Shown here piece by piece: positions 9,265-58,799 of a DNA stretch of 64,000 bases. The first letter of the stretch is position 1; each line of letters opens with the position of its first letter. The position numbers were made by a program, and so were the translations under genes. Source of the stretch: Shigella phage ESh19; sequence record ON528729, one strand, 5' to 3'. The notes beneath the pieces are model-generated. The model saw nothing but the letters and a program-made list of their open reading frames with translations, was not told the origin of the DNA and did not search any database.

Positions 9265-11964
9265 ATGGACAATGTAGATTTCGAAAAATTACATTTGGTT
9301 GGTGATACAGAAACTGATGGGTTGCTCCTTGAGTTTACAAAAGCACACGTAATGGCTTTCGCAGACTATAAAGATGACAGTGATGAACCTGCTGTGTGGG
9401 TTTTCACTGATGAGCCTATTCTTGGTCACAAGTACACAAAATACATCAAAGGTGGTCTGCGTGAAGGTGTTGAGTTTGCACTGAAAGCTAAACGTCTTTG
9501 CATACATAATGGTTTAGGTTATGACTGGTGGGTGTTTAATCACATTGCACCTGACCTGTGGAACTTTGAGAATCCTAAGTGCAAGCCTTGGAGTGACTTC
9601 TTTCAGGATTCACTTATCCAATCTCGCGTACAGTGGATGGATAGACCTACACCAAAAGGTTACAAAGGTGCTCATGGTTTGGCTGCATGGGGTGCTCGTG
9701 TTGGTGTTCGTAAACCAGAGATTGAAGAGTGGGGTGTCTGGAATGCAGAGATTCTTACTCGTGTTGTAGAAGATATTAAGATTAACGCCAAAACTAAACG
9801 TGCTCTTGATAATGAGTACCTCAAGCTTAAGAAGTGTGGTGTTGACACTTATGAAACCTACATGCGAGCTAAAGAAACATCTTTCTGGATGAGTCAGCAA
9901 GCTATCAACGGTTGGAAAGCTGATGTAGAACTTATGCAGTTCCACGTTAAAGAGCTTGACAAGTTAACTAATGAGTTGGCTGCTGAGGTTGAACCACACC
10001 TTCCACCAACTATTAAGACAAAAGGTAAAGTCACAGGTGAAGAATTTGCCAAGTCTTGGAATGAGTATGTAGATACATTTGGTCACGTTGACGGTTTAAA
10101 AAGGATTACCAAGTACCCTAAGACAAAGTATCGTGAACAGATGCGTGAAGGTGAGTTGAAGCAGTACCCTATCAAGCCATATGGTAAGCCAACCACAAAG
10201 ATTTTTAATGTTGAGAAACGCAACTGCTACACTCCAACTAACACGGTCACAAAAGAAGAGTACCCTGAAGGTTTTGTAGCAATGAAAGATGCTCGTGCAG
10301 TTTGTAATGAACTGAATGAGAAGATTGGCAAGAAGTGTAAAGATTGGAAGCCAGTTAAGACTGTGAAAACTGTGAAGTACTACAACGTTCACGTTGTTAA
10401 TCACTTTGAGTTAGAGTCTAGTCGCTACACTGGTTTGATTGATGCACCATTCACACCAATTGAGTTTGAAGTTTCACGAATGACTCAGGTAGCTGTGGTG
10501 AAGGATTACTTAAAATCCGTTGGCTGGATTCCTGATGATTGGAACTATAAAAAAGATTCTGACGGTCGTCCTATCAAGGTTTGCAGGTTCAAAGACAACA
10601 AAAAGATGATTCGCAAACATCCTAAGTGGGATGAGATGGTTGAACGTTGTGGGTTGAACTATATTGAGCATGAAGGTGTCTACTACATCGAGCATAACTG
10701 GTCTGTTAAGAAGTACACAGATGTGCTTGAGCCTTGCTTGATTAGGACTTCACCAAAGCTTACAGAATCTTCTTATGATACAATCGAAGGTGAGCTTGGA
10801 CAGAAGATTGCGAAGTACTATACTTTGATGCACCGACGCAGGACTATCGAGAACTCAAAGGATGATGAGAAAGGTTGGCTGAACCAGATTCGTCCAGATG
10901 GTCGTTTGAGTGCAGGTGCAATGGTGTTTGGTACTTCTACTGGACGTATGACTCAGTATGGTATTGTGAACGTACCTTCTGGTGCTGCTGTGTACGGTGA
11001 GCCAATGAGGGCAGTGTGGATTTGTGAAGAGGGAACCAACGTAGTATCTGTTGATATGAACTCTGCACAGCTTGTACTACTCTGTAACTTCATGGGTGAT
11101 AAAGATTTCACCAAAGCGGTAACAGAGGGTAAAGAAGAGATTGAGTTTGTTCGTCAAGAGGATGGAAGATACTACTGTAAACACTTTGACCAGTATCTGA
11201 ATCCAGAGATTGACAAGTATCTGCGTTACGACTCTGAAAACGATTTGTACGTAGTTTACTCAGGGACTGATGCTCATACCCTGAACAGTATCTACTTCAG
11301 CCTTAATGATGAGCAAGATATCTTGACTTGTCGTGCTACTCAGGATGAGAATCTTCTTCATGAGATTAGCAAGGGACGTAAGAAAGCTAAGAATGGTATC
11401 TATGCCCTGTTGTTCGGTGCAGGTGATGAGAAGTTTGCTAAAACAATTAAAGCAGCAACTACTCAGGAAGGTGCATTGACTAAGCAGACTTACTTTGTGC
11501 GTTTACCGAAGATTAAGAAACTGTTAGACAACTTGGAAGCTGATTTCAAAGCAACTAAGAAAGCACTTGAAGAGGTGTTTGGTAAGACTGCTGCAATAGC
11601 TAAAGGTGGATTTGTTCAGGTTGCTGGGGCGTGGTTGTGGTGTAAATCTCCACACAAACTCTTGAACTATCTGTTGATGGGTTCAGAAGCACAAGTTCAG
11701 AATGAAGCAATCAACCTTGCTTGTCGTCGTATGATTGATGAAGGTTTGATGAAACTAAATGGTCGTAAGCCAGCTATCGGTGCTCGTTTACTTTGTGCTT
11801 ACCACGACGAAACAAGCTGGGAATGCCCAGAAAGCATGACAGCAGAAGTTAAGGCAGTAACTGACTGGTATTATGGTCAAGCTTCTAAAAACTTGGGACT
11901 GAAGAAGGATACTTTGGTAACGGGTACTGGTAAGGTTGGTAAATCGTGGCTTGAAGTCCACTAA
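9265..11964 (+). CDS. DNA polymerase, family A (Pol I-like) with 3'-5' exonuclease domain
   Basis: Exo I DTETDGL; motif A VSVDMNSAQL; motif C YHDE; 899 aa; RBS GAGGGAG. Confidence 0.85.
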   Translation: MDNVDFEKLHLVGDTETDGLLLEFTKAHVMAFADYKDDSDEPAVWVFTDEPILGHKYTKYIKGGLREGVEFALKAKRLCIHNGLGYDWWVFNHIAPDLWNFENPKCKPWSDFFQDSLIQSRVQWMDRPTPKGYKGAHGLAAWGARVGVRKPEIEEWGVWNAEILTRVVEDIKINAKTKRALDNEYLKLKKCGVDTYETYMRAKETSFWMSQQAINGWKADVELMQFHVKELDKLTNELAAEVEPHLPPTIKTKGKVTGEEFAKSWNEYVDTFGHVDGLKRITKYPKTKYREQMREGELKQYPIKPYGKPTTKIFNVEKRNCYTPTNTVTKEEYPEGFVAMKDARAVCNELNEKIGKKCKDWKPVKTVKTVKYYNVHVVNHFELESSRYTGLIDAPFTPIEFEVSRMTQVAVVKDYLKSVGWIPDDWNYKKDSDGRPIKVCRFKDNKKMIRKHPKWDEMVERCGLNYIEHEGVYYIEHNWSVKKYTDVLEPCLIRTSPKLTESSYDTIEGELGQKIAKYYTLMHRRRTIENSKDDEKGWLNQIRPDGRLSAGAMVFGTSTGRMTQYGIVNVPSGAAVYGEPMRAVWICEEGTNVVSVDMNSAQLVLLCNFMGDKDFTKAVTEGKEEIEFVRQEDGRYYCKHFDQYLNPEIDKYLRYDSENDLYVVYSGTDAHTLNSIYFSLNDEQDILTCRATQDENLLHEISKGRKKAKNGIYALLFGAGDEKFAKTIKAATTQEGALTKQTYFVRLPKIKKLLDNLEADFKATKKALEEVFGKTAAIAKGGFVQVAGAWLWCKSPHKLLNYLLMGSEAQVQNEAINLACRRMIDEGLMKLNGRKPAIGARLLCAYHDETSWECPESMTAEVKAVTDWYYGQASKNLGLKKDTLVTGTGKVGKSWLEVH

Positions 11965-12226: not shown

Positions 12227-12432
12227 GCCATCGTGGAAGAACTCATCTCGCTATGATGCAAGGTGCTTCAAAAGAGACTATCAAGAATCGGAAGAAAACT
12301 CTTTTTGACAGAATGAATAGACTCATTGATAATGCGAGCCTACCTAACTCTGAAAAGGTTTTCTTGAAAGGGAATCTGAAGAGTATTGCACAGGAACTTA
12401 TTGACATTGAATTTTGGAGACACCAAAAATGA
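12223..12432 (+). CDS. hypothetical protein (69 aa)
   Basis: ORF track. Confidence 0.45.
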   Translation: MSHRGRTHLAMMQGASKETIKNRKKTLFDRMNRLIDNASLPNSEKVFLKGNLKSIAQELIDIEFWRHQK

Positions 12433-12680
12433 GCAATAAAGAGCAAGAAGCTTTAGCAATCTTCAAGAGCGAAGACAAATCAATAGCTTTTGTCTCAGAG
12501 GCTTGGTGCAGGGATTTGGGGTATGATTGGTATATCTTCTTATGCGCTAAGAAAGATGTTAAACCAGTTGATGAAACCCGATTCAAAGAACTGTATACTA
12601 TCTGCCAAGAGGGTTATGAAGAACATTACGAAGGTTCTTTGAATCCTGTAAATTCAAAAGCTTCAGATTTATTTTATTGA
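12429..12680 (+). CDS. hypothetical protein (83 aa)
   Basis: ORF track; start refined to ATG 12429 (ATGA overlap with previous stop, GGAGA upstream). Confidence 0.45.
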   Translation: MSNKEQEALAIFKSEDKSIAFVSEAWCRDLGYDWYIFLCAKKDVKPVDETRFKELYTICQEGYEEHYEGSLNPVNSKASDLFY

Positions 12681-12690
12681 GAGGTTTAAA

Positions 12691-12936
12691 ATGTTAAAAT
12701 TATTGATACCAGCTTTAGCAGTCCTACTGGTTGGGTGTAACCCTTCTTATGAGAATAAGGATGCTTCTTACAGACTTCCTCCAGAAATGCAAGACTGCAA
12801 GATTTATAAGCTTAATGGTGATGCCATTAGCAGGGATGTTATTGTAGTTCGCTGCCCAAATTCTCAGACGACAACTTCTTACAAGTATGGGAAGAATAGT
12901 CAGTCACACGCCACAGTTTTTGATGAGGGATATTGA
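12691..12936 (+). CDS. small lipoprotein (81 aa)
   Basis: Signal peptide ending in lipobox LLVGC (MLKLLIPALAVLLVGCNPS). Confidence 0.5.
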   Translation: MLKLLIPALAVLLVGCNPSYENKDASYRLPPEMQDCKIYKLNGDAISRDVIVVRCPNSQTTTSYKYGKNSQSHATVFDEGY

Positions 12937-12937
12937 T

Positions 12938-13144
12938 ATGCAGGTTCTGGTAAACTTTATCTATAAGTATGAAAACATCTTCAGCACTATGACTGTAGCT
13001 CAACGCAATCCAGTTATTCCCCGAGAAGGGGAGACTGTTGAGATTAATGATTGGAACTACAGAGTTGAAGAGGTCAAGCATAAACTTAAAGATGGTTATG
13101 ACCACCAAGTTGTAAATGTGTATTTAAAAGGTAAGTGGCAATGA
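12938..13144 (+). CDS. hypothetical protein (68 aa)
   Basis: ATG at 12938 immediately after previous stop. Confidence 0.4.
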   Translation: MQVLVNFIYKYENIFSTMTVAQRNPVIPREGETVEINDWNYRVEEVKHKLKDGYDHQVVNVYLKGKWQ

Positions 13145-13383
13145 GTAGAGAAGACCAGTTAATTGATATGCAAAATGACAAAAATGAGGCAATATCCATA
13201 ATCCCAATATTGTGGGGGCATGACTGCACATATGGTAACTATCTGTGTGTTTGTGAAGACCGAAACATTGAACCCGTAAGCCGTGATGAGTATCAAAAAC
13301 ACTTAAAGGCTCTTGACAATTACTTCACAGATAATAAATGCTCTCAGATTTCAAGTGAGGTCTTGCATGAAGATTTTTATTAA
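13141..13383 (+). CDS. hypothetical Cys-rich protein (80 aa)
   Basis: ORF track (start refined to ATG). Confidence 0.4.
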   Translation: MSREDQLIDMQNDKNEAISIIPILWGHDCTYGNYLCVCEDRNIEPVSRDEYQKHLKALDNYFTDNKCSQISSEVLHEDFY

Positions 13384-13464: not shown

Positions 13465-14565
13465 ATGACAATTCTGTACAAACAAAACAAAGATGGTTCT
13501 TTCAACGTCTGGTCATGTGTTGCTGTAGGTGATAAAGTCGTCACAACTTATGGTAAAGAAAATGGCAAGATGATGTTTGAAGAGTACACAGCAGAACCTA
13601 AGAACATCGGTAAAAAGAATGAGCGTAATGCTGAACAGCAAGCTCTCTTTGAAGTTGCTGCTAAGTACAAGAAGCAGGTTGACCGTAAAGGATATGCTTA
13701 CACAAAATCTGAAGCAGAGAATGTTGAGAAGGTTGGTGTACAGCTTGCTCAGGATGCTTCCAAGATAAGTCACAAGAAGTATCTGGTATTCCCTGCCGAT
13801 GCTCAACCTAAACTTGATGGTGTTCGTTGCAGGATTTCAAGAGATGCTGACTCAGAAAGTTTTACGGCATATTCTCGTGAGAACACGGTATACAACATTC
13901 CTGTAGAGTTGATTCCTGATGTTCTTCTTATGCTGAAACTGCACAAAGATGTTGAGGATTTCGACGGGGAGATTTATGCTCATGGTTGGGACTTGGAAGA
14001 TATTGTATCTATGATTAAGAATGCTGACAATCCAGACCGTCACCTTCTTAAATTCTACTGGTATGATATCTGTGACAAGACTAAATCTTGGCCTGAGCGT
14101 CGTGAAGTTATTGATAATTCACCAATCGTTGAACTCGGTGATGCTTGCAGGGTTGTACCTGTTCAGACAATCCGTGTTAACTCTTGGGAAGAATTTGATA
14201 ATGCTCATGACAACTGGGTTAAACTCAAGTTTGAAGGGGCAATGTATCGGTCAATCTCACCAGATTCGTTCTATGAGTGTGGTCATCGCTCTTACTTCCT
14301 GATTAAGCACAAGAAGATGCACACACAGGAATTTAAAGTAACTGGTGTAAAGACTGATAAACGTGGTCATGGTAAGTTCGTTGTAGAGACTCTTCCTAAC
14401 GTCTTTGTAGATGTTTCATGGAAAACTACACACGAGAAGAAAAAGTATCTTGCTGAACATCCTGAAGAGTTTATCGGGAAGCCTTTAACGGTTCAGTTCC
14501 AGAAGATGACTCGTAAGGGTTCTTTACAGTTCCCTGTTGGGCTAGTAATTCGAGATTATGAATAG
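13465..14565 (+). CDS. ATP-dependent DNA ligase (T7-like size)
   Basis: Motif I PKLDGVRC (KxDGxR), motif IV EGAMYRS, motif V FLIKHKK; 366 aa. Confidence 0.7.
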   Translation: MTILYKQNKDGSFNVWSCVAVGDKVVTTYGKENGKMMFEEYTAEPKNIGKKNERNAEQQALFEVAAKYKKQVDRKGYAYTKSEAENVEKVGVQLAQDASKISHKKYLVFPADAQPKLDGVRCRISRDADSESFTAYSRENTVYNIPVELIPDVLLMLKLHKDVEDFDGEIYAHGWDLEDIVSMIKNADNPDRHLLKFYWYDICDKTKSWPERREVIDNSPIVELGDACRVVPVQTIRVNSWEEFDNAHDNWVKLKFEGAMYRSISPDSFYECGHRSYFLIKHKKMHTQEFKVTGVKTDKRGHGKFVVETLPNVFVDVSWKTTHEKKKYLAEHPEEFIGKPLTVQFQKMTRKGSLQFPVGLVIRDYE

Positions 14566-14573
14566 AGGTTAGT

Positions 14574-14723
14574 ATGTTTAGCACAATTATCCTGTTTGTT
14601 TTTGTTGTTTTATCATTATCTTACTTCATAAGTAAACTTTTAAGCATAACATACAAAGCAGCCTTAGCCCTTACTCTGTTGTCATTTGCAGTAAATGCAG
14701 CAGTTAGAATGTATTTAGTATAA
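14574..14723 (+). CDS. small hydrophobic membrane peptide (49 aa), not in ORF track
   Basis: ATG 14574 preceded by AGAGGT; translation MFSTIILFVFVVLSLSYFISKLL... Confidence 0.3.
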   Translation: MFSTIILFVFVVLSLSYFISKLLSITYKAALALTLLSFAVNAAVRMYLV

Positions 14724-14806: not shown

Positions 14807-15187
14807 ATGAAAAAGTTACTTGTTGGTGTCATTGCTATTGGTATGAGTTTTAGTGCAGCAGCTATGAAGATGCCTGAAGCAAACTTTAATGGTGTTGCTT
14901 TAGAATCTTGTAAGATTGTACAGAAAATCGCTTCAAATGCTGGAGAGTTGACTAAACCGTTGTCTGCTCAGACTGTTCAAGAAATGACTGATAAGATGGT
15001 TGACTACAACTACCATTTTATGGGAGATTACTATGACAGATTAGCAGATGAGATGGTCACTCAGAACGTTGACCTTCTTGATAGCAAAGGTATTGAGACT
15101 GTAGAAGATGTGAAAGACAACTTTATGCGTGAGTCTTTCAAAGGTGTTCAATACTTTATTGAAAATCGTCACTGCATGGGTTTATAA
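14807..15187 (+). CDS. secreted/periplasmic protein with signal peptide (126 aa)
   Basis: MKKLLVGVIAIGMSFSAAAM signal peptide; RBS GGAGG 5 nt upstream of ATG 14807. Confidence 0.5.
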   Translation: MKKLLVGVIAIGMSFSAAAMKMPEANFNGVALESCKIVQKIASNAGELTKPLSAQTVQEMTDKMVDYNYHFMGDYYDRLADEMVTQNVDLLDSKGIETVEDVKDNFMRESFKGVQYFIENRHCMGL

Positions 15188-19455: not shown

Positions 19456-21831
19456 TTATGCAGTTCTTACCCAAGCCATTAATTTAATGTAAGTGTTAAG
19501 AACACTGAATGCTGCACCAGAACCAGTTGCACCAGTGTTACCACTGAATGTGTGGTTGTGAGCACCAATACCTACACCGTGACCGTGAGCACCTACCCAA
19601 CTTGTTCTCCCTGTCCAAGTTCTGGAAGCATAGAAGTTAACTGGCGCACCATAAGTGAAGTGAGAACCTGTCCAGCTATGCCCACCTTGGCTACCACTCA
19701 TTGCAAAAGCACCGTCTGCAACGTAGAACGAGTTATTATCACTTCTAAACCATCCAAAGTTACCAGAGATTTCCATATTACCTCTGTCATGGTCGTGAGC
19801 ACCTTGAGCGTCTGTGTACTTAGTGCCATAATCAAATGTACTTGTTGTTCCAGAGAAGCTATGAGTGTGCGCAGGAATATGACCAACACTTAGAGCCACC
19901 GTATCAGAACCACCAAGACCTTTCACATCGGAACCATTTGCAGAACCAATTCTAATAGTTCTGTTTGCACCCTCTGTCAAGTAAGTCCAAGTAGTGCCTG
20001 GGAAAGCTGTATTTGGGTTGACATTAGAAGCAAAGAACGTCACAATACCAACTGGATACACTTTTTTAAGGTCTGTAGCATCAGTTACAGCGGAAGCAAT
20101 ACGTTGGTCTACTTCAGCCTTGGTGTAAGCACCAAGTTCAGAGGGTGTAGGTTTGTCTTGGTCTGTGTAGATTTTAGCCCAAACCTCTTCAAAACCAAAT
20201 CCATCCCTTGCTGTTCTATAATAGATTCCAGTATTCTTGTAGTTAAATTTAAACTGTGCAGTCGGTGTAGATGCACCAACTCCAAGGTACATTTGGTAAA
20301 CTAAGTGAGTAGACCCACCAGTTGAATTTGTAACACTGTACAAACCTGTTTTTGAATTCCAAGCAATACCTGTTGCATCACCAACTTCTGTTCCCGTTCC
20401 AGATACACCAGACAACATATATCTTGAGTTTGAAGCAGATTGTGTGTAGTATCTTGAGTCAAAGTTTGACCAATCGCTTGGTCTTACTTGTCCAACAATA
20501 TTCACATGTGTATTCACATCTAAATCAGTACCAATATTGATTGCCTTTCCTGTTACATCATTGTTAAGTACCACATTGTTTTGACCAGCATCACCAATAC
20601 CCAACCACCATCTCCTGCTCCCATTAGCATTATGTGCAGACATGTAGATTCCAGAGTCTTGTACTGTTGCCTGTAGTCTAAAAGGATTGTCGCTGTCAGT
20701 ATTGATAGTCTGTGGACTAGTAAAAACGTTTGCAGCATTAGTTCTTGCAAGAACATTCGTTAAAGAGCTTGGAACGTATCTTGTATCAAAGTTTGCAAAG
20801 TCACTTGGTTTTACCTGACCAGTTACATTGATAGCTTTATTAAATGAAAACTCTGTAGCAATTTTCAAGTTAACATTTGTCATCTGATTTGCTAAAACAA
20901 TCTCAGACTGCGTACCATCTGGTTGACCTACATACCAAGTTCCTGTCCCAGCACTGTTATAACCACGCATAAATAATGCAGCATTCTCTGTAACCGCTCT
21001 TAAGTTAAGTGCATTACTATCTGCAATAACATAAGTCTTACCATTGAAGTTGTTAACCCCAACAAAGTTATTACTTGCATTAAGTTTTGCAAATCTCTGG
21101 TCAGCAGCAGTCTGTGTAAAGAATCTTGCATCAAGGTTATTCCAGTTATTAGGCTGAACCTGTCCATTGATTTCAAAATTCTTATCAACACTAACAGAGT
21201 TTGTGCCAAGAGTCAACGTAGCACCCTTACTATTAACTAATGTAACATCAGTACCAGAAGTCAAGTTACCAACTGTGAATCTCAAAGCATTATTTGAATC
21301 CCTTGCTTCAATATATGCTCCACCATCTGGTAAGATACTTTTAAGTGTTAAACCAACACCGTTGATATTAATGATTTGTCTTGCCAAGAAGGTATTTTCA
21401 GTTTCCTTCATAGCGTATCTTGCATCATTTTCAGTATTAGTTCTCATACCTAATTCATTAGGAGATGGTTTATTAAGTGTGTGATAAACTGTTGCAGACC
21501 TTGTGGCATCATTTACAGTTAATCTTAAAGCACTTGCATTAATTCTAAAGGTCTTGGCAGTGTCACCGAGAATAACCTCAGAAGAACCTGTTGGGTCTAA
21601 TAAGTCTTTTCCACCGTATCTTAATTTGACGATGCCAAGATTCCCTGTCATATCCCCACCAGTTAGTTGTAAGAATCTTTCTAGTTTGAAAGAGGCAAGG
21701 AAATTTGCATAGGTCATTTTACGGTCTTCATCACCTAGCATATCAGACCTTTTGATAATTCTTAGGTGAAGTAAATCTTCTGAGCGAACTGTATCAATAC
21801 TGTTTAGCTCACTTAGCTTATATTCAGCCAT
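19456..21831 (-). CDS. tail fiber protein (791 aa) with C-terminal His-x-His repeats
   Basis: Size, position distal to baseplate genes, HTHSFSG ... GAHDHD ... GAHGHGVGIGAHNHTFSG motifs; RBS AAGAGGA. Confidence 0.65.
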   Translation of the reverse strand: MAEYKLSELNSIDTVRSEDLLHLRIIKRSDMLGDEDRKMTYANFLASFKLERFLQLTGGDMTGNLGIVKLRYGGKDLLDPTGSSEVILGDTAKTFRINASALRLTVNDATRSATVYHTLNKPSPNELGMRTNTENDARYAMKETENTFLARQIININGVGLTLKSILPDGGAYIEARDSNNALRFTVGNLTSGTDVTLVNSKGATLTLGTNSVSVDKNFEINGQVQPNNWNNLDARFFTQTAADQRFAKLNASNNFVGVNNFNGKTYVIADSNALNLRAVTENAALFMRGYNSAGTGTWYVGQPDGTQSEIVLANQMTNVNLKIATEFSFNKAINVTGQVKPSDFANFDTRYVPSSLTNVLARTNAANVFTSPQTINTDSDNPFRLQATVQDSGIYMSAHNANGSRRWWLGIGDAGQNNVVLNNDVTGKAINIGTDLDVNTHVNIVGQVRPSDWSNFDSRYYTQSASNSRYMLSGVSGTGTEVGDATGIAWNSKTGLYSVTNSTGGSTHLVYQMYLGVGASTPTAQFKFNYKNTGIYYRTARDGFGFEEVWAKIYTDQDKPTPSELGAYTKAEVDQRIASAVTDATDLKKVYPVGIVTFFASNVNPNTAFPGTTWTYLTEGANRTIRIGSANGSDVKGLGGSDTVALSVGHIPAHTHSFSGTTSTFDYGTKYTDAQGAHDHDRGNMEISGNFGWFRSDNNSFYVADGAFAMSGSQGGHSWTGSHFTYGAPVNFYASRTWTGRTSWVGAHGHGVGIGAHNHTFSGNTGATGSGAAFSVLNTYIKLMAWVRTA

Positions 21832-21876
21832 TTATAAATCCTCTTTCTAGGGGCTGTGTAGCCCCTTATAAAATAA

Positions 21877-23052
21877 TTACGCAGTTCTCTTCCAAACATA
21901 TACAACATAAGAAGGTTGCTCAATATTAAATGCTTGTCCAGCACCAAATGCACCAGTTGTACCTGAGTGAGTGTGCTCAGAAGATTGAACTGTCACAGTA
22001 CCTGAGTGTCCATGTGAACCAATTGCAACGCTGTGTCCATGTGCTCCAATATACACACTGTGAGAGTGGTTACCACCAACTGAAGAGTTAACGTTGAAGG
22101 TATGTGTGTGAACCCCATCAAAGTCTGTATATGACGCATTACCAACACCTGCATCAGCCGTTGCCGTAATAGCGTTTACACCACCCCTGTCGGAACCCCT
22201 CAATGGAATCCTGTGGCTGTGACTACCAGCACTGCTTACAGAACCATTAACGTTATGAGCGTGGCTTCCAGAGTCGTTTGTGGCCTTAGAACCATAATCA
22301 AAACTTGATGTGCTCTTAGTCCCATAGTCAAAGCTAGAAATTACTACTGTTGCATTATGGGAGTGTCCACCACCAGTTAGTAATACAGAGTGTGTGTGAC
22401 TTGGAATGTTATTTTGTGTAAGTGTTACAGTAGCAGAACCAAATACTGATTCTACAGGTCTTGTATCTGTGTCATAACCAACAAGAGACCTTCCTTTAGA
22501 AACTAACTCCCAAGTACCACCACAAAGTAAATATGTAGATGGGTTTGCAGGGTTAACTGACAAATGAATAGTACCAATTGGATAGCTATTCTGGATAGCT
22601 CTGTATAAAGCATTCACAGCTTTTGCAGTAGCGTACTTATCAGCATCTTCAGAGTAAGAGTTTGAGTATGTCCAGTTTTGAATATTAGACAAACCTACTT
22701 GAATCTTGTTAGTGTTGTGAGGGTTATTCTTGTCATTAATGTGATTTTGAATAAGGGCATTAACTTCATCACTTGATAGAATATTAAGGTTCTGTCTAGC
22801 CTCTTCAACACTAACCACGTCTGACAAGTTATTAGCAGCCACTAATTGGAGTGCGTTAACAACATTACCAAGTTCTACGTGAACCTTTGTAACACCGTGT
22901 GGGTTATTTCTTAAAGATGCGTGTGGAGCAAGTAATTGCTCAAGTGTGCATCGTTTATCCTCAATACCTTGCTTCAGGTGAAAGATATCACTTAAATCAA
23001 TCGGTAATGAGGCTTGAGGCAATGCACTAATTTGAATTTCACCGACTGCCAT
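21877..23052 (-). CDS. tail fiber / receptor-binding protein (391 aa), His-x-His rich
   Basis: HTHSV, GGGHSHN, GSHAHN, GSHSHR, GGNHSHS, GAHGHS, GSHGHS repeats; C-terminus similar to that of 19456..21831. Confidence 0.6.
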   Translation of the reverse strand: MAVGEIQISALPQASLPIDLSDIFHLKQGIEDKRCTLEQLLAPHASLRNNPHGVTKVHVELGNVVNALQLVAANNLSDVVSVEEARQNLNILSSDEVNALIQNHINDKNNPHNTNKIQVGLSNIQNWTYSNSYSEDADKYATAKAVNALYRAIQNSYPIGTIHLSVNPANPSTYLLCGGTWELVSKGRSLVGYDTDTRPVESVFGSATVTLTQNNIPSHTHSVLLTGGGHSHNATVVISSFDYGTKSTSSFDYGSKATNDSGSHAHNVNGSVSSAGSHSHRIPLRGSDRGGVNAITATADAGVGNASYTDFDGVHTHTFNVNSSVGGNHSHSVYIGAHGHSVAIGSHGHSGTVTVQSSEHTHSGTTGAFGAGQAFNIEQPSYVVYVWKRTA

Positions 23053-57499: not shown

Positions 57500-58167
57500 T
57501 TATGGGACACCTACTGAAGAAGAGTTGGAAGAACTTAACAGATATGGTTCCCCATCTGAAGAGGAAGCGGAAGAACTCCGAAGAATGGGAAGCAATTACT
57601 AAGAAATGTTTTAAGGATTTGATAGAGATGAAAAAGTTTGAACTTGAAAGAAAGTATCTGGTACTGAGTCTAGATGATATTAACACTTATCTGTCAGAGG
57701 ATGAGCAAGAGTATCTTAACAATATTGTTGACACACTCTACAATGCACGTATAGAGGATTGTAAAGACCAACTTGAAGGTATCTTTATCAAGAAGTCTTA
57801 TCCGTTCTATGAAGATACTTTGAAGAAACTTGAGATGTATGTTAAGCAGCAGAACCGTAAAGAGTTCTCTATGATTTCTCTTGGTGGACAACAAATGCTG
57901 GTTATGGAAGATATAAACCCTAAGAGAACCAACAAAGGTGTTTGTATCAAGGTCACAGGTAAAGAGGAATTTGTTGAATATGACATACTCAGACACATTA
58001 TAGATGGTTTGGGTGCTGTACTGAACATGAATGAATACCATATTAGTTCACACCCGATTAAGGGTGACCAGATAATGATTCAGGTAAGAGAACGTCATAA
58101 TGGGTTCACACACTTCTTCCAGACTTCTAAAACTTCATTGCAAACTATGCTTAGTGAAGTGATGTAA
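57496..58167 (+). CDS. hypothetical protein (223 aa)
   Basis: ORF track. Confidence 0.5.
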   Translation: MIMGHLLKKSWKNLTDMVPHLKRKRKNSEEWEAITKKCFKDLIEMKKFELERKYLVLSLDDINTYLSEDEQEYLNNIVDTLYNARIEDCKDQLEGIFIKKSYPFYEDTLKKLEMYVKQQNRKEFSMISLGGQQMLVMEDINPKRTNKGVCIKVTGKEEFVEYDILRHIIDGLGAVLNMNEYHISSHPIKGDQIMIQVRERHNGFTHFFQTSKTSLQTMLSEVM

Positions 58168-58175
58168 AACTATAC

Positions 58176-58223
58176 AGCCCCTTAAAATGGATTCGATAGA
58201 ATCTATCTCATAGGGGCTTTTTA
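58176..58223 (+). terminator. terminator-like hairpin (CAGCCCCT...AGGGGCT then TTTTT) ending plus-strand cluster
   Basis: Stem with nested GATTC/GAATC hairpin followed by T5. Confidence 0.45.
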
Positions 58224-58339
58224 TTGAGTAAATTTACGAAATTTATAATTTTTATAAAATTTGGGATTCACTCCGTTCATCTTGGGTCACCATGATATGT
58301 GATAAAATATCTATACCCTTCTAAACACCCTCTCTAAGC

Positions 58340-58590
58340 ATCATCTCTATATAGTATTATATAGTATCTATATAGCCTCTTAGTCTCTAAATAGTGCTCT
58401 CTATATAGCCCTCTATAAAGCCTTCTAAGCCTACCATTAATCAACCCTATACAATCACCTTCCTAACCTCTTTCTAGCCCCTTAGAAGCCCCTATACCCA
58501 TCTTAATCTCTATGTCCAAGATAGTACCCTATATAGCAGAATCACTAGGTATTACTAAGCCTCTATATAGACTGTTATATAGCACTAAAC
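58340..58590. repeat. cluster of CTATATAG / TATAGCC short motifs on pyrimidine-rich plus strand
   Basis: ctatatagtattatatagtatctatatagcc ... ctctatatagccc ... cctatatagcag ... ctctatatagactgttatatagc. Confidence 0.5.
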
Positions 58591-58799
58591 AGGTATTCCC
58601 TTCTAAGGCTTATTCTACAAGGTCTAACACGGTACTAACAAGGTCTCTTATAAACCTGTTAATTCCTGTTTTATATAAGATAGTGTATAGATAGTTATTC
58701 AGAATTATAAAATTTTTATAAAATAGACTAGGTAGTGTTTATTTAGGGGTCTTTGGAGAATCTGAAAAATATCTACTTAGGGTGTATATCTGCTTGGTA

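What the first reader, a model, noticed from the sequence alone, without database searches (positions are those of the whole stretch)
12691..12936. Early small lipoprotein - candidate superinfection-exclusion factor
The 81-aa protein has a classic lipoprotein signal (LLVGC lipobox) and is expressed from the early plus-strand cluster. Small phage lipoproteins such as T5 Llp and the Cor family block the phage's own receptor.
Basis: partly seen in the sequence, partly recalled or inferred. Interest (0 to 1): 0.4.

Follow-up and report, generated by a model that had tools for sequence, protein, structure and literature searches.

The report
Conserved phage lipoprotein of unknown function
This is a real, strongly conserved small membrane-anchored protein made by a Felix O1-like phage; it belongs to a large unstudied family in lytic phages and is unrelated to the known receptor-blocking lipoproteins, so a receptor-blocking role is unlikely.

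Summary
Window 12691..12936 (+) is an 81-codon gene with a ribosome-binding site, a lipoprotein signal peptide and the lipobox L-V-G-C16. It lies between the DNA polymerase and DNA ligase genes of a Mooglevirus (Ounavirinae, Felix O1-like).

The mature domain is under strong purifying selection (dN/dS 0.04-0.11). The signal peptide has been replaced between genera, but the lipobox is kept.

The protein belongs to a large uncharacterised family (phrog_902; precomputed label DUF4884). The family has 630 clusters at 50% identity. Three Cys are invariant or nearly so (C16 and C36 158/158, C55 157/158), and there is a V-V-R-C-P-N-S-x-T-x-T motif. It occurs in many unrelated virulent phages of Enterobacterales, Vibrio, Aeromonas and Acinetobacter, and almost never in bacterial genomes.

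The Llp/Cor-type interpretation is disfavoured:
- There is no sequence or fold similarity to Llp or Cor, and the disulfide pattern differs.
- The gene is not next to the tail-fibre genes and does not co-vary with them.
- Ounavirinae bind LPS, not a protein receptor.

It is not the o-spanin either, because a spanin pair is conserved elsewhere in this phage group.

Superinfection exclusion in a broader, receptor-independent sense remains plausible but is untested. Function is inferred only. Interest is moderate.

The parts
12679..12684 (+). Shine-Dalgarno sequence GAGAGG, 6 nt upstream of the ATG; it overlaps the TGA stop (12678..12680) of the upstream gene
   Evidence: Read directly from the sequence. 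The same GAGAGG is present upstream of the Mordin orthologue, where the depositors annotated an RBS.
12691..12936 (+). Complete gene for the 81-aa prolipoprotein (stop codon included), a member of phrog_902 / precomputed DUF4884
   Evidence: ORF list. phrog_902 match at E=8.1e-17. Annotated as a hypothetical protein in more than 180 Ounavirinae genomes. dN/dS of 0.04-0.11 for the mature part.
12691..12735 (+). Signal peptide, residues 1-15 (MLKLLIPALAVLLVG). The lipobox L13-V14-G15-C16 spans 12727..12738.
   Evidence: Pattern matches and hydropathy. The lipobox is conserved family-wide. The signal peptide sequence is replaced between genera while the lipobox is kept.
12736..12738 (+). Codon of Cys16, the predicted diacylglyceryl/N-acyl attachment site. 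The next residue is Asn (+2), which by the E. coli rule gives Lol sorting to the outer membrane.
   Evidence: C16 is invariant in 158/158 members. The +2 distribution is. The sorting rule is established knowledge and was not tested here.
12739..12933 (+). Mature periplasmic domain, 66 aa including C16, pI 6.75, predicted small five-stranded beta domain (strands 19-22, 37-42, 49-54, 60-66, 69-75)
   Evidence: AlphaFold2 model from 94 sequences, mean pLDDT 75.4. Composition.
12796..12798 (+). Codon of Cys36 (in the motif L-P-x-E-L-x-D-C-K-x-Y), one half of the inferred disulfide
   Evidence: Invariant in 158/158 members. It lies just before strand 37-42 in the model.
12853..12855 (+). Codon of Cys55, the other half of the inferred disulfide at the base of the 37-42/49-54 hairpin
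   Evidence: Present in 157/158 members. It lies just after strand 49-54. The disulfide itself is an inference.
12844..12876 (+). Family signature V52-V-R-C-P-N-S-Q-T-T-T62
   Evidence: Column counts are V128, V112, R135, C157, P150, N121, S133, T145 and T126 of 158. A DNA pattern built from it found the relatives.

Best explanation
**Shown or directly supported.** The gene encodes a small lipoprotein.
- The precursor carries a Sec-type signal peptide ending in the lipobox LVG-C16.
- The 66-residue mature protein is a compact beta domain that begins only a few residues after the lipidated Cys.
- It contains two further family-invariant Cys (C36, C55). These flank the base of one beta hairpin and probably form a disulfide.
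- It is co-transcribed with the replication genes, so it is made early to mid infection, well before lysis.

**Inferred mechanism.** It is most likely a receptor-independent envelope factor.
- It binds a conserved, periplasm-exposed partner. That partner could be a universal host envelope component, or a part of the penetration apparatus of an incoming phage.
- This would make the already infected cell refractory to a second attack on its envelope (superinfection or lysis from without).
- It does not act by masking this phage's own receptor.

The identity of the partner is unknown.
For: - **Real, selected gene with a lipoprotein signal:**
- **Predicted beta domain:** pLDDT 75.
- **Large family with near-invariant residues:** these include Y27, L29, P30, D35, C36, K37, R54, C55, P56, N57, S58, T60, T62, G67 and K68. 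Such conservation fits a fixed binding surface or fold. There are 630 clusters at 50% identity with E<=1e-3.
- **Wide phage distribution:** Ounavirinae, Vequintavirinae (4MG), Certrevirus (CR3, phiTE), T4-like phages of Aeromonas and Acinetobacter (Aeh1, phiAS5, Acj61), jumbo Asteriusvirus, Erwinia jumbo phages, Obolenskvirus and 114-kb Vibrio phages. The partner must therefore be common to these hosts or phages.
- **Virtually confined to virulent phages:** no match in 5,426 complete E. coli genomes. A motif scan of 185,579 species genomes gave one true hit.
- **No link to the receptor-binding proteins:** it evolves like a conserved early gene and is uncoupled from the tail fibres.
- **Genomic neighbourhood:** it usually lies among small membrane or secreted proteins in early regions. 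In Acinetobacter phage QH4 a T4 Imm-type 'immunity to superinfection' gene (phrog_1039, E=3.9e-27) lies about 400 bp downstream.
- **Anchoring membrane not conserved:** 22 of 158 members have Asp at +2, including the member from an E. coli jumbo phage (C-D-A). By the E. coli +2 rule these would stay in the inner membrane. This fits a target that crosses or floats in the periplasm better than an outer-membrane receptor.
- **Precedent:** the characterised small lipoproteins that virulent coliphages make before lysis (T5 Llp and relatives) are exclusion factors.
Against: - No experiment exists on any family member. PHROGs, Pfam (DUF) and every GenBank record examined give no function, apart from two similarity-based labels that I could not substantiate.
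- T4-like members coexist with the Imm/Sp systems expected in T4-like phages (their presence was not checked here). A further exclusion factor would be partly redundant there.
- The Imm neighbourhood was seen in only one lineage.
- Large phages pack many small membrane proteins into their early regions, so that context is weak evidence.
- About 12-15% of Ounavirinae records lack an intact copy by tblastn (222 versus 251-260 records). The gene is therefore dispensable for growth.
- The very short tether argues for a membrane-proximal partner. This sits awkwardly with a soluble or transiting target.
Confidence: 0.35

Rival explanations
1. Host-envelope takeover or counter-defence unrelated to exclusion. 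The lipoprotein binds and inhibits (or stabilises) a universal envelope machine or enzyme at the membrane surface. Candidates include outer-membrane biogenesis (Bam, Lpt, Lol), Tol-Pal, lytic transglycosylases and an envelope-stress sensor. The effect would be to keep the infected cell intact and silent until programmed lysis.
For: - The same facts that argue for a conserved partner: near-invariant motifs across phages of several bacterial orders.
- The first beta strand starts 3 residues after the lipid Cys, so the domain sits at the membrane surface.
- The gene is expressed with the replication genes.
- It coexists with dedicated exclusion genes in at least one lineage.
Against: - No similarity to any known inhibitor: PDB sequence and fold searches were empty, and PADLOC was empty.
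- Asp at +2 in 14% of members implies that different membranes are used. This is odd for a partner fixed in one membrane.
- Nothing points to a particular target.
Confidence: 0.3
2. It is an Llp/Cor-type superinfection-exclusion lipoprotein that binds the periplasmic face of the phage's own outer-membrane receptor and blocks it.
For: - It is a small, probably outer-membrane lipoprotein made before lysis, like T5 Llp.
- Two GenBank records label relatives 'Cor superinfection exclusion protein' and 'lytic conversion lipoprotein'.
Against: - The 'Cor superinfection exclusion protein' label rests on a weak match confined to the signal peptide: phrog_1119 at E=9e-4 over residues 1-49, against phrog_902 at E=5e-13. 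The basis of the 'lytic conversion lipoprotein' label was not examined.
- hhalign against HK022 Cor aligns only 20 signal-peptide columns.
- No fold match to Llp or Cor in the PDB or BFVD.
- The Cys pattern differs.
- The gene is not adjacent to the RBP genes.
- There is no co-variation with the tail fibres: 95% versus 57% identity to Mordin.
- Ounavirinae use LPS, not protein receptors.
- The domain is conserved across phages with different receptors.
Confidence: 0.07
3. Lysis accessory. It is a second o-spanin-like outer-membrane lipoprotein, or a periplasmic regulator of lysis timing.
For: - It is a small outer-membrane lipoprotein with periplasmic Cys residues, as o-spanins are.
- In phage 4MG the upstream gene hits phrog_6073 'Rz-like spanin' (E=1.6e-22).
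Against: - A curated overlapped i-/o-spanin pair is conserved elsewhere in 251 Ounavirinae records (PMC6139136).
- In 4MG the curated spanins are at 57.9-58.6 kb, not at 133 kb.
- No transmembrane partner gene flanks the gene in the window.
- The gene lies in the replication operon, not beside the holin or endolysin.
- The mature domain is predicted beta-structured with only 6% Pro, unlike o-spanins.
- There is no BLAST similarity to the Mordin o-spanin.
Confidence: 0.08
4. Not a functional gene: a chance ORF or a decaying remnant.
For: - It is short.
- It is missing or disrupted in a minority of relatives. GE_vB_7A is frameshifted in an unverified record, and finno is not annotated.
Against: - dN/dS of 0.04-0.11.
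- A good RBS.
- A family of 630 clusters with invariant residues.
- Conserved position in the operon across genera.
Confidence: 0.01

Closest known systems
T5 Llp and the Cor proteins (phi80, HK022, T1, N15): FhuA-binding superinfection-exclusion lipoproteins
   Same: - Size (about 60-66 residue mature protein).
- A lipoprotein signal and probable anchoring in the inner leaflet of the outer membrane.
- A beta-rich domain held by one disulfide.
- Like Llp, it is made by a virulent phage before lysis.
   Different: - No detectable sequence or fold relationship.
- The disulfide joins the base of one hairpin (C36-C55) rather than the N and C termini (C11-C58).
- The gene is in the replication operon rather than beside the receptor-binding protein gene.
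- It does not track tail-fibre divergence.
- The host phage binds LPS.
- The family spans phages with many different receptors.
o-spanins (lambda Rz1 and equivalents; the Ounavirinae 'JH2' o-spanin family)
   Same: A small outer-membrane lipoprotein with periplasmic cysteines, encoded by a phage of Gram-negative hosts.
   Different: - No adjacent, overlapping or embedding i-spanin gene.
- Not in a lysis cassette.
- The phage group already has a conserved spanin pair elsewhere.
- The mature part is predicted to be a folded beta domain, not proline-rich or extended.
T4 Spackle (Sp) and Imm: receptor-independent exclusion acting in the periplasm or inner membrane
   Same: - Early-expressed, envelope-located small proteins of a virulent myovirus.
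- They act independently of the receptor.
- This is the functional model I consider closest to what the distribution suggests.
- An Imm homologue is a near neighbour in one lineage.
   Different: - No sequence similarity (only phrog_902 is matched).
- By established knowledge (not tested here), Sp is a soluble periplasmic protein and Imm an integral membrane protein; this is a lipoprotein.
- The function of this protein is untested.
phrog_902 / Pfam DUF4884 (uncharacterised)
   Same: - Direct HMM match to phrog_902 (E=8.1e-17).
- The precomputed Pfam label on all close homologues is PF16225, DUF4884.
   Different: - Neither entry carries any functional information.
- The DUF4884 match could not be reproduced with the Pfam copy available here.

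Membership tests
Bacterial-type lipoprotein (Lgt/LspA/Lnt substrate) | N-terminal signal peptide with a basic n-region, a hydrophobic h-region and a lipobox [LVI][ASTVI][GAS]C within the first ~35 residues | tested here: met
   The N-terminus is MLK / LLIPALAVL / LVG-C16. It matches the PS51257-style and G+LPPv2 patterns.
Bacterial-type lipoprotein (Lgt/LspA/Lnt substrate) | The lipobox Cys is conserved in homologues even where the signal peptide sequence diverges | tested here: met
   Cys is present in 158/158 aligned members, and -1 is G, A or S in 158/158. Signal peptide dN is 0.66-0.98 with the lipobox retained.
Bacterial-type lipoprotein (Lgt/LspA/Lnt substrate) | Actual lipid modification and globomycin-sensitive processing; membrane localisation | not testable with these tools
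   This needs palmitate labelling, globomycin treatment and membrane fractionation. Outer-membrane sorting is inferred from Asn at +2.
Llp/Cor superinfection-exclusion lipoproteins | Sequence homology to Cor or Llp families | tested here: not met
   The only PHROG hit is phrog_902. hhalign of the family profile against HK022 Cor aligns only the signal peptide, 20 columns. A direct comparison with the T5 Llp sequence was not made.
Llp/Cor superinfection-exclusion lipoproteins | Shared fold with an N-terminus-to-C-terminus disulfide (Llp C11-C58) | tested here: not met
- Foldseek against the PDB gave a best E of 0.35.
- BFVD hits were only members of this family.
- The conserved Cys are C36 and C55, about 17 residues apart.
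- The model has pLDDT of only 75, so the fold test is not absolute.
Llp/Cor superinfection-exclusion lipoproteins | Gene located next to the receptor-binding protein gene (downstream of gpJ, or beside pb5) | tested here: not met
   The gene lies between the DNA polymerase and DNA ligase genes. The tail-fibre genes are at 19456..23052 on the other strand (criterion from PMC9586334).
Llp/Cor superinfection-exclusion lipoproteins | Co-variation with the receptor-binding protein, and a cognate outer-membrane protein receptor | tested here: not met
   Identity to Mordin is 95% for the lipoprotein and 57% for the distal fibre. Ounavirinae are reported to use LPS, not protein receptors.
Llp/Cor superinfection-exclusion lipoproteins | Expression confers resistance to the cognate phage | not testable with these tools
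   This needs a plating or adsorption assay.
o-spanin (two-component spanin, outer-membrane subunit) | Gene embedded in, overlapping or adjacent to an i-spanin gene (N-terminal TM helix plus a coiled-coil periplasmic domain) | tested here: not met
   The flanking genes at 12429..12680 and 12938..13144 have no hydrophobic segment in their translations and hit unrelated PHROGs.
o-spanin (two-component spanin, outer-membrane subunit) | It is the phage's spanin, i.e. no other spanin pair is present | tested here: not met
   The overlapped i-/o-spanin pair (Mordin_134/133) is conserved in 251 Ounavirinae records. It is listed as the 'JH2' family by Kongari et al.. That locus lies outside this window.
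o-spanin (two-component spanin, outer-membrane subunit) | Largely unstructured, often proline-rich mature domain | tested here: not met
   Pro content is 6%, and five beta strands are predicted.
phrog_902 / DUF4884 family of phage lipoproteins | Significant profile match over the whole mature domain, with the family signature (C16, Y-x-L-P-x-E-L-x-D-C-K, V-V-R-C-P-N-S-x-T-x-T, G-K) | tested here: met
   phrog_902 at E=8.1e-17 over residues 1-76. All signature residues are present.
phrog_902 / DUF4884 family of phage lipoproteins | Match to Pfam PF16225 (DUF4884) | tested here: inconclusive
   A precomputed, unmarked (E<=1e-5) label is attached to all close homologues. hmmscan here gives no such hit even at E<=10.

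The most novel reading that the evidence does not exclude
The family is a previously unrecognised class of virulent-phage envelope effectors. A lipid-anchored, disulfide-stapled 60-residue domain recognises one universal periplasm-exposed target. That target could be a core outer-membrane biogenesis or tethering machine, or a conserved element of incoming phage penetration devices. The result would be receptor-independent, cross-phage exclusion or host envelope shut-down in phages from Felix O1 to jumbo phages and Vibrio phages.
Probability: 0.25. Interest if true: 0.7.

Novelty: new variant of a known kind. Interest (0 to 1): 0.42.

Why it matters
- Phage-encoded lipoproteins with known roles fall into a few classes: Llp/Cor receptor blockers, o-spanins, and Bor- or TraT-like conversion factors.
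- This gene represents a much larger family. It has 630 clusters at 50% identity and occurs in hundreds of sequenced virulent phages, including Felix O1-type phages used in diagnostics and biocontrol. It fits none of the known classes and has never been studied.
- Its invariant residues across phages of Enterobacterales, Vibrio, Aeromonas and Acinetobacter imply a single conserved partner in the cell envelope.
- Identifying that partner would reveal either a generic exclusion mechanism, which matters for designing phage cocktails, or a conserved weak point of the Gram-negative envelope that many phages target.
- The gene is short, dispensable and easy to express, so the question can be tested directly.

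Tried and rejected
1. **Pfam-A, NCBIfam and PADLOC scans** of the protein, its mature part and 94 relatives. Nothing was found beyond the generic lipid-attachment signature (LPAM_1 in 19 members) and noise such as Zn_ribbon_InsA at E~0.1.
2. **PDB sequence searches** with two profiles. Only signal-peptide-level noise was found.
3. **First AlphaFold model** from 12 close homologues. It was too poor to use (pLDDT 58). The second model, from 94 sequences, was used instead.
I replaced it with a degenerate DNA pattern for V-V-R-C-P-N-S-x-T-x-T. That pattern catches only part of the family (probably a minority; the fraction was not computed), so the counts are lower bounds.
6. **o-spanin hypothesis.** It was revived briefly by the 'Rz-like spanin' PHROG hit on the 4MG neighbour. 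It was rejected after checking the curated spanin coordinates.
7. **DUF4884 gene in T1-like phages.** I looked for a DUF4884 gene coexisting with a Cor-type gene, following a mention for phage Henu8. The related pSf-1 genome has no family member by my HMM, and two further tblastn searches found no Drexlerviridae. The lead was dropped.
8. **Literature searches** for the family, for PF16225/DUF4884 and for Felix O1 lipoproteins found no functional study.
9. **Felix O1 RT-PCR table and supplement.** The orthologue is not listed.
10. **Promoter and terminator scan.** Counts were at or below shuffled expectation, so no promoter was assigned.

Full report
**What is in the sequence.** Window 12691..12936 (+) is an 81-codon ORF with an ATG start and a TGA stop.
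- A GAGAGG Shine-Dalgarno sequence (12679..12684) lies 6 nt upstream and overlaps the stop codon of the preceding gene. The next gene starts 2 nt after the stop. The gene is therefore tightly packed in an operon.
- The product begins MLK-LLIPALAVL-LVG-C16: one basic residue, an 11-residue hydrophobic core and a canonical lipobox. It matches a PS51257-style pattern and the G+LPPv2 pattern.
- It is the only credible lipoprotein among all ORFs of at least 40 aa in the 64-kb window.
- The mature protein has 66 residues, a pI of 6.75, is hydrophilic (GRAVY -0.92), and has Asn at +2.

**Genome context.**
- The window is a Mooglevirus (Ounavirinae, Felix O1-like). It is 98.8% identical over 2.7 kb to Citrobacter phage BSwM KMM4, and 92-98% identical to Shigella phages Sf13-Sf19 and to Citrobacter phages Mordin, Moogle and Michonne.
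- The gene lies in a co-directional run: DNA polymerase (9265..11964), six small ORFs, DNA ligase (13465..14565), an HTH regulator, DHFR and thymidylate synthase. This run converges on the late tail-fibre/holin operon.
- For Felix O1, RT-PCR detected transcripts of the polymerase ORF of this unit within 5 min. The polymerase and the neighbouring ORFs peak at 25 min. The orthologue itself is not in the table (PMC3185647). 'Early to middle' is therefore a reasonable inference, not a measurement.
- A sigma-70-like match (TTGACA-17-GATAAT, 12305..12333) exists upstream. Such matches are no more frequent here than in shuffled sequence.

**It is a real gene under selection.**
- Across Ounavirinae the mature part is 70-100% identical. 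Its dN/dS relative to the window copy is 0.04-0.11.
- The signal peptide is almost completely replaced (MLKLLIPALAVLLVGC versus MWKxxIxLGVIFLxGC; dN 0.66-0.98), yet the lipobox is kept.
- This pattern is expected if export and lipidation are required but the leader sequence is free to change.
- An intact copy is found by tblastn in 222 phage records at >=80% query coverage (taken to be Ounavirinae). By comparison, 251-260 records carry the neighbouring genes or the spanin locus. The gene is thus widespread but dispensable.

**The family.**
- The protein hits phrog_902 (unknown function, E=8.1e-17).
- A profile search of 1.84 billion cluster representatives found 630 representatives at E<=1e-3 and 85 at E<=1e-10. 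Nearly all are 75-110 residues long.
- In an alignment of 158 members the lipid Cys and C36 are invariant, and C55 is present in 157.
- The alignment gives the signature Y27-x-L-P-x-E-L/M-x-D-C36-K-x-Y ... V-V-R-C55-P-N-S-x-T-x-T ... G67-K68.
- Spacing is tight: 17-25 residues between C16 and C36, and 13-22 between C36 and C55.
- C-terminal tails are variable. They often carry one or two [VI]-x-[VI]-[DN]-G-x-x-Y repeats.
- Twenty-six members carry an extra Cys pair.
- Close homologues carry the precomputed Pfam label PF16225 (DUF4884). I could not reproduce it with the Pfam copy available here. Either way the label carries no function.
- NCBIfam and PADLOC gave nothing.

**Who has it.**
- tblastn and BFVD find members in Ounavirinae, Seunavirus 4MG and other 145-150-kb myoviruses, Certrevirus (CR3, phiTE) and T4-like phages of Aeromonas and Acinetobacter (Aeh1, phiAS5, Acj61).
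- They also find members in Yersinia phage fHe-Yen9-03, Acinetobacter Obolenskvirus and ME3, jumbo Asteriusvirus (121Q, UB, vB_Ec-M-J) and Erwinia jumbo phages.
- About 290 near-identical 114-kb Vibrio phages also carry it.
- In every case examined the gene sits in an early or replication region among small ORFs. Many of these encode membrane or secreted proteins.
- The family is almost absent from bacteria. There is no DNA match in 5,426 complete E. coli genomes.
- A degenerate pattern for the VVRCPNSxTxT motif hit 9 sites in 185,579 species genomes. Eight were out-of-context chance matches. One was a true member, in Hylemonella gracilis next to a truncated comM-like gene.
- It is therefore a gene of virulent phages, not a prophage 'moron' like cor.

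**Structure.**
- With 94 diverse sequences, AlphaFold2 gives a mean pLDDT of 75. The model has a signal helix followed by five strands (19-22, 37-42, 49-54, 60-66, 69-75).
- C36 precedes strand 37-42 and C55 follows strand 49-54. The two Cys therefore flank the base of one hairpin. A disulfide is likely but inferred.
- The first strand begins 3 residues after the lipid Cys, so the domain should sit against the membrane.
- BFVD returned only unannotated relatives of this family. There is no structural lead to function.

**Testing the Llp/Cor reading.** According to the T5 papers, Llp and Cor share a fold whose N and C termini are tied by a C11-C58 disulfide. They bind the periplasmic face of FhuA, and their genes lie beside the receptor-binding protein gene. 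Here:
- Profile-profile alignment with HK022 Cor covers only the signal peptide.
- The one relative annotated 'Cor' matches phrog_902 at E=5e-13. It matches the Cor PHROG only at E=9e-4, over residues 1-49.
- The Cys topology differs.
- The gene is about 6.5 kb from the fibre genes and on the opposite strand.
- Against Mordin the lipoprotein is 95% identical while the distal fibre is 57% identical. Against Felix O1-type phages the figures are 66-74% (76-85% for the mature part in most, 70% in the unverified GE_vB_7A record) and 43-55%.
- Ounavirinae are described as using LPS and no protein receptor (PMC8594841).
- A domain conserved across phages with unrelated receptors cannot be tuned to one receptor.

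I therefore reject family membership and rate the receptor-masking mechanism at about 7%.

**Testing the o-spanin reading.**
- Mordin and 250 other Ounavirinae records carry an overlapped i-/o-spanin pair next to rIIA/rIIB. This is the 'JH2' family of Kongari et al.. That locus lies outside this window.
- The gene here has no transmembrane partner beside it, is not near the holin, and encodes a folded, proline-poor domain.
- In 4MG the neighbour of the family member carries a 'Rz-like spanin' PHROG label. The curated 4MG spanins are 75 kb away.
- I rate this reading at about 8%, which includes any other role in lysis.

**What it most likely does.**
- The invariant polar and aromatic residues, the distribution across hosts of several orders, the restriction to virulent phages, the timing before lysis and the independence from receptor-binding proteins all point the same way. 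The protein is a binding module for one conserved, periplasm-exposed partner.
- A further clue is that the anchoring membrane is not conserved. The +2 residue is Asp in 22 of 158 members, including an E. coli jumbo-phage member (C-D-A). By the E. coli +2 rule (established knowledge) this means inner-membrane retention.
- A partner that can be met from either membrane fits something that crosses or floats in the periplasm. An incoming phage's penetration apparatus or its wall-degrading enzyme is one example. It fits less well with a fixed outer-membrane receptor.
- In one lineage a T4 Imm-type gene is a close neighbour.
- On this basis I favour a receptor-independent 'envelope guard' (exclusion or lysis from without) at about 0.35.
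- A host-envelope takeover or counter-defence role unrelated to exclusion follows closely at about 0.30.
- Neither is demonstrated, and the remainder is unassigned.

**Verdict.**
- The feature is real and correctly described.
- The Sie-by-receptor-masking interpretation is not supported.
- The gene is a member of a large, uncharacterised family of virulent-phage lipoproteins, distinct from Llp/Cor and from spanins.
- It is a good, cheap experimental target, but in the genome itself it is an ordinary conserved 'hypothetical protein'.
- Interest is 0.42.

Noticed in passing
window 14574..14723 (+) and 14807..15187 (+): Two more envelope-targeted products lie in the same operon, just after the DNA ligase gene.
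- One is a 49-aa protein with two hydrophobic segments (phrog_22006, unknown function).
- The other is a 126-aa protein with a Sec signal peptide (MKKLLVGVIAIGMSFSAAA|MK; phrog_4332, unknown function).
- The 126-aa protein is only 32-34% identical between Mooglevirus and Felixounavirus, while its neighbours are 70-92% identical. It is therefore evolving fast, more like a host- or receptor-specific factor than the lipoprotein is.
   Followed up: partly
window 12429..12680 (+) and 13141..13383 (+): Two genes either side of the lipoprotein gene (the second is separated from it by 12938..13144) both match phrog_9065, at E=6.7e-49 and E=2.2e-07. They are diverged paralogues of unknown function.
   Followed up: no
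window 12934..12936, compared with L018, L019 and L020: In the other Ounavirinae compared the protein ends at ...TVFD or ...TVIE (78 aa). In the window, and in a few close relatives, that stop codon is a sense codon (E), and the ORF runs three codons further (EGY).
   Followed up: yes
L007 3699..3944 (phage 4MG, gene 4MG_237): The 81-aa single-TM protein immediately upstream of the 4MG family member matches phrog_6073 'Rz-like spanin' (E=1.6e-22). The curated 4MG spanin pair is at 57951..58643 of the genome, so the PHROG label looks wrong or the protein has another role.
   Followed up: partly
L006 4612..4824 (Acinetobacter phage vB_Aba_QH4): A T4 Imm-type gene (phrog_1039 'immunity to superinfection', E=3.9e-27) lies about 400 bp downstream of the family member in this Obolenskvirus.
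   Followed up: partly
L010 4568..4846 (Hylemonella gracilis ATCC 19624 contig): This is the only true family member found in 185,579 species genomes by the motif scan. It encodes a 92-aa lipoprotein beside an XRE-type regulator, and the locus also carries a truncated comM-like gene. It is probably part of an integrated element.
   Followed up: partly
window 9265..11964 versus L021, L022 and L001: The DNA polymerase gene is intact here (899 aa). In phages REP7 and JH2 it is annotated as two CDSs, with an intervening endonuclease VII gene in JH2. In BSwM KMM4 the annotation breaks it into three hypothetical proteins.
   Followed up: no
window 19456..21831 (-): The distal tail-fibre protein (791 aa) is only 43-57% identical to that of every relative compared, including Mooglevirus phages that are 94-99% identical in their replication genes. 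This indicates recent exchange of the receptor-binding region.
   Followed up: no
family-wide (proteins P0026, P0032, P0095; P0070, P0123, P0156): Some family members carry C-terminal extensions. One type has a conserved L-K-L-x-E-A-L-x-K-L-[TS]-x-E-E-[RK]-x-x-L-G-L tail. Another has one or two [VI]-x-[VI]-[DN]-G-x-x-Y repeats. The window protein has neither.
   Followed up: no
The precomputed Pfam label PF16225 (DUF4884) on all close homologues is not reproduced by hmmscan against the session's Pfam-A copy, even at E<=10. The model may be missing from that copy.
   Followed up: partly
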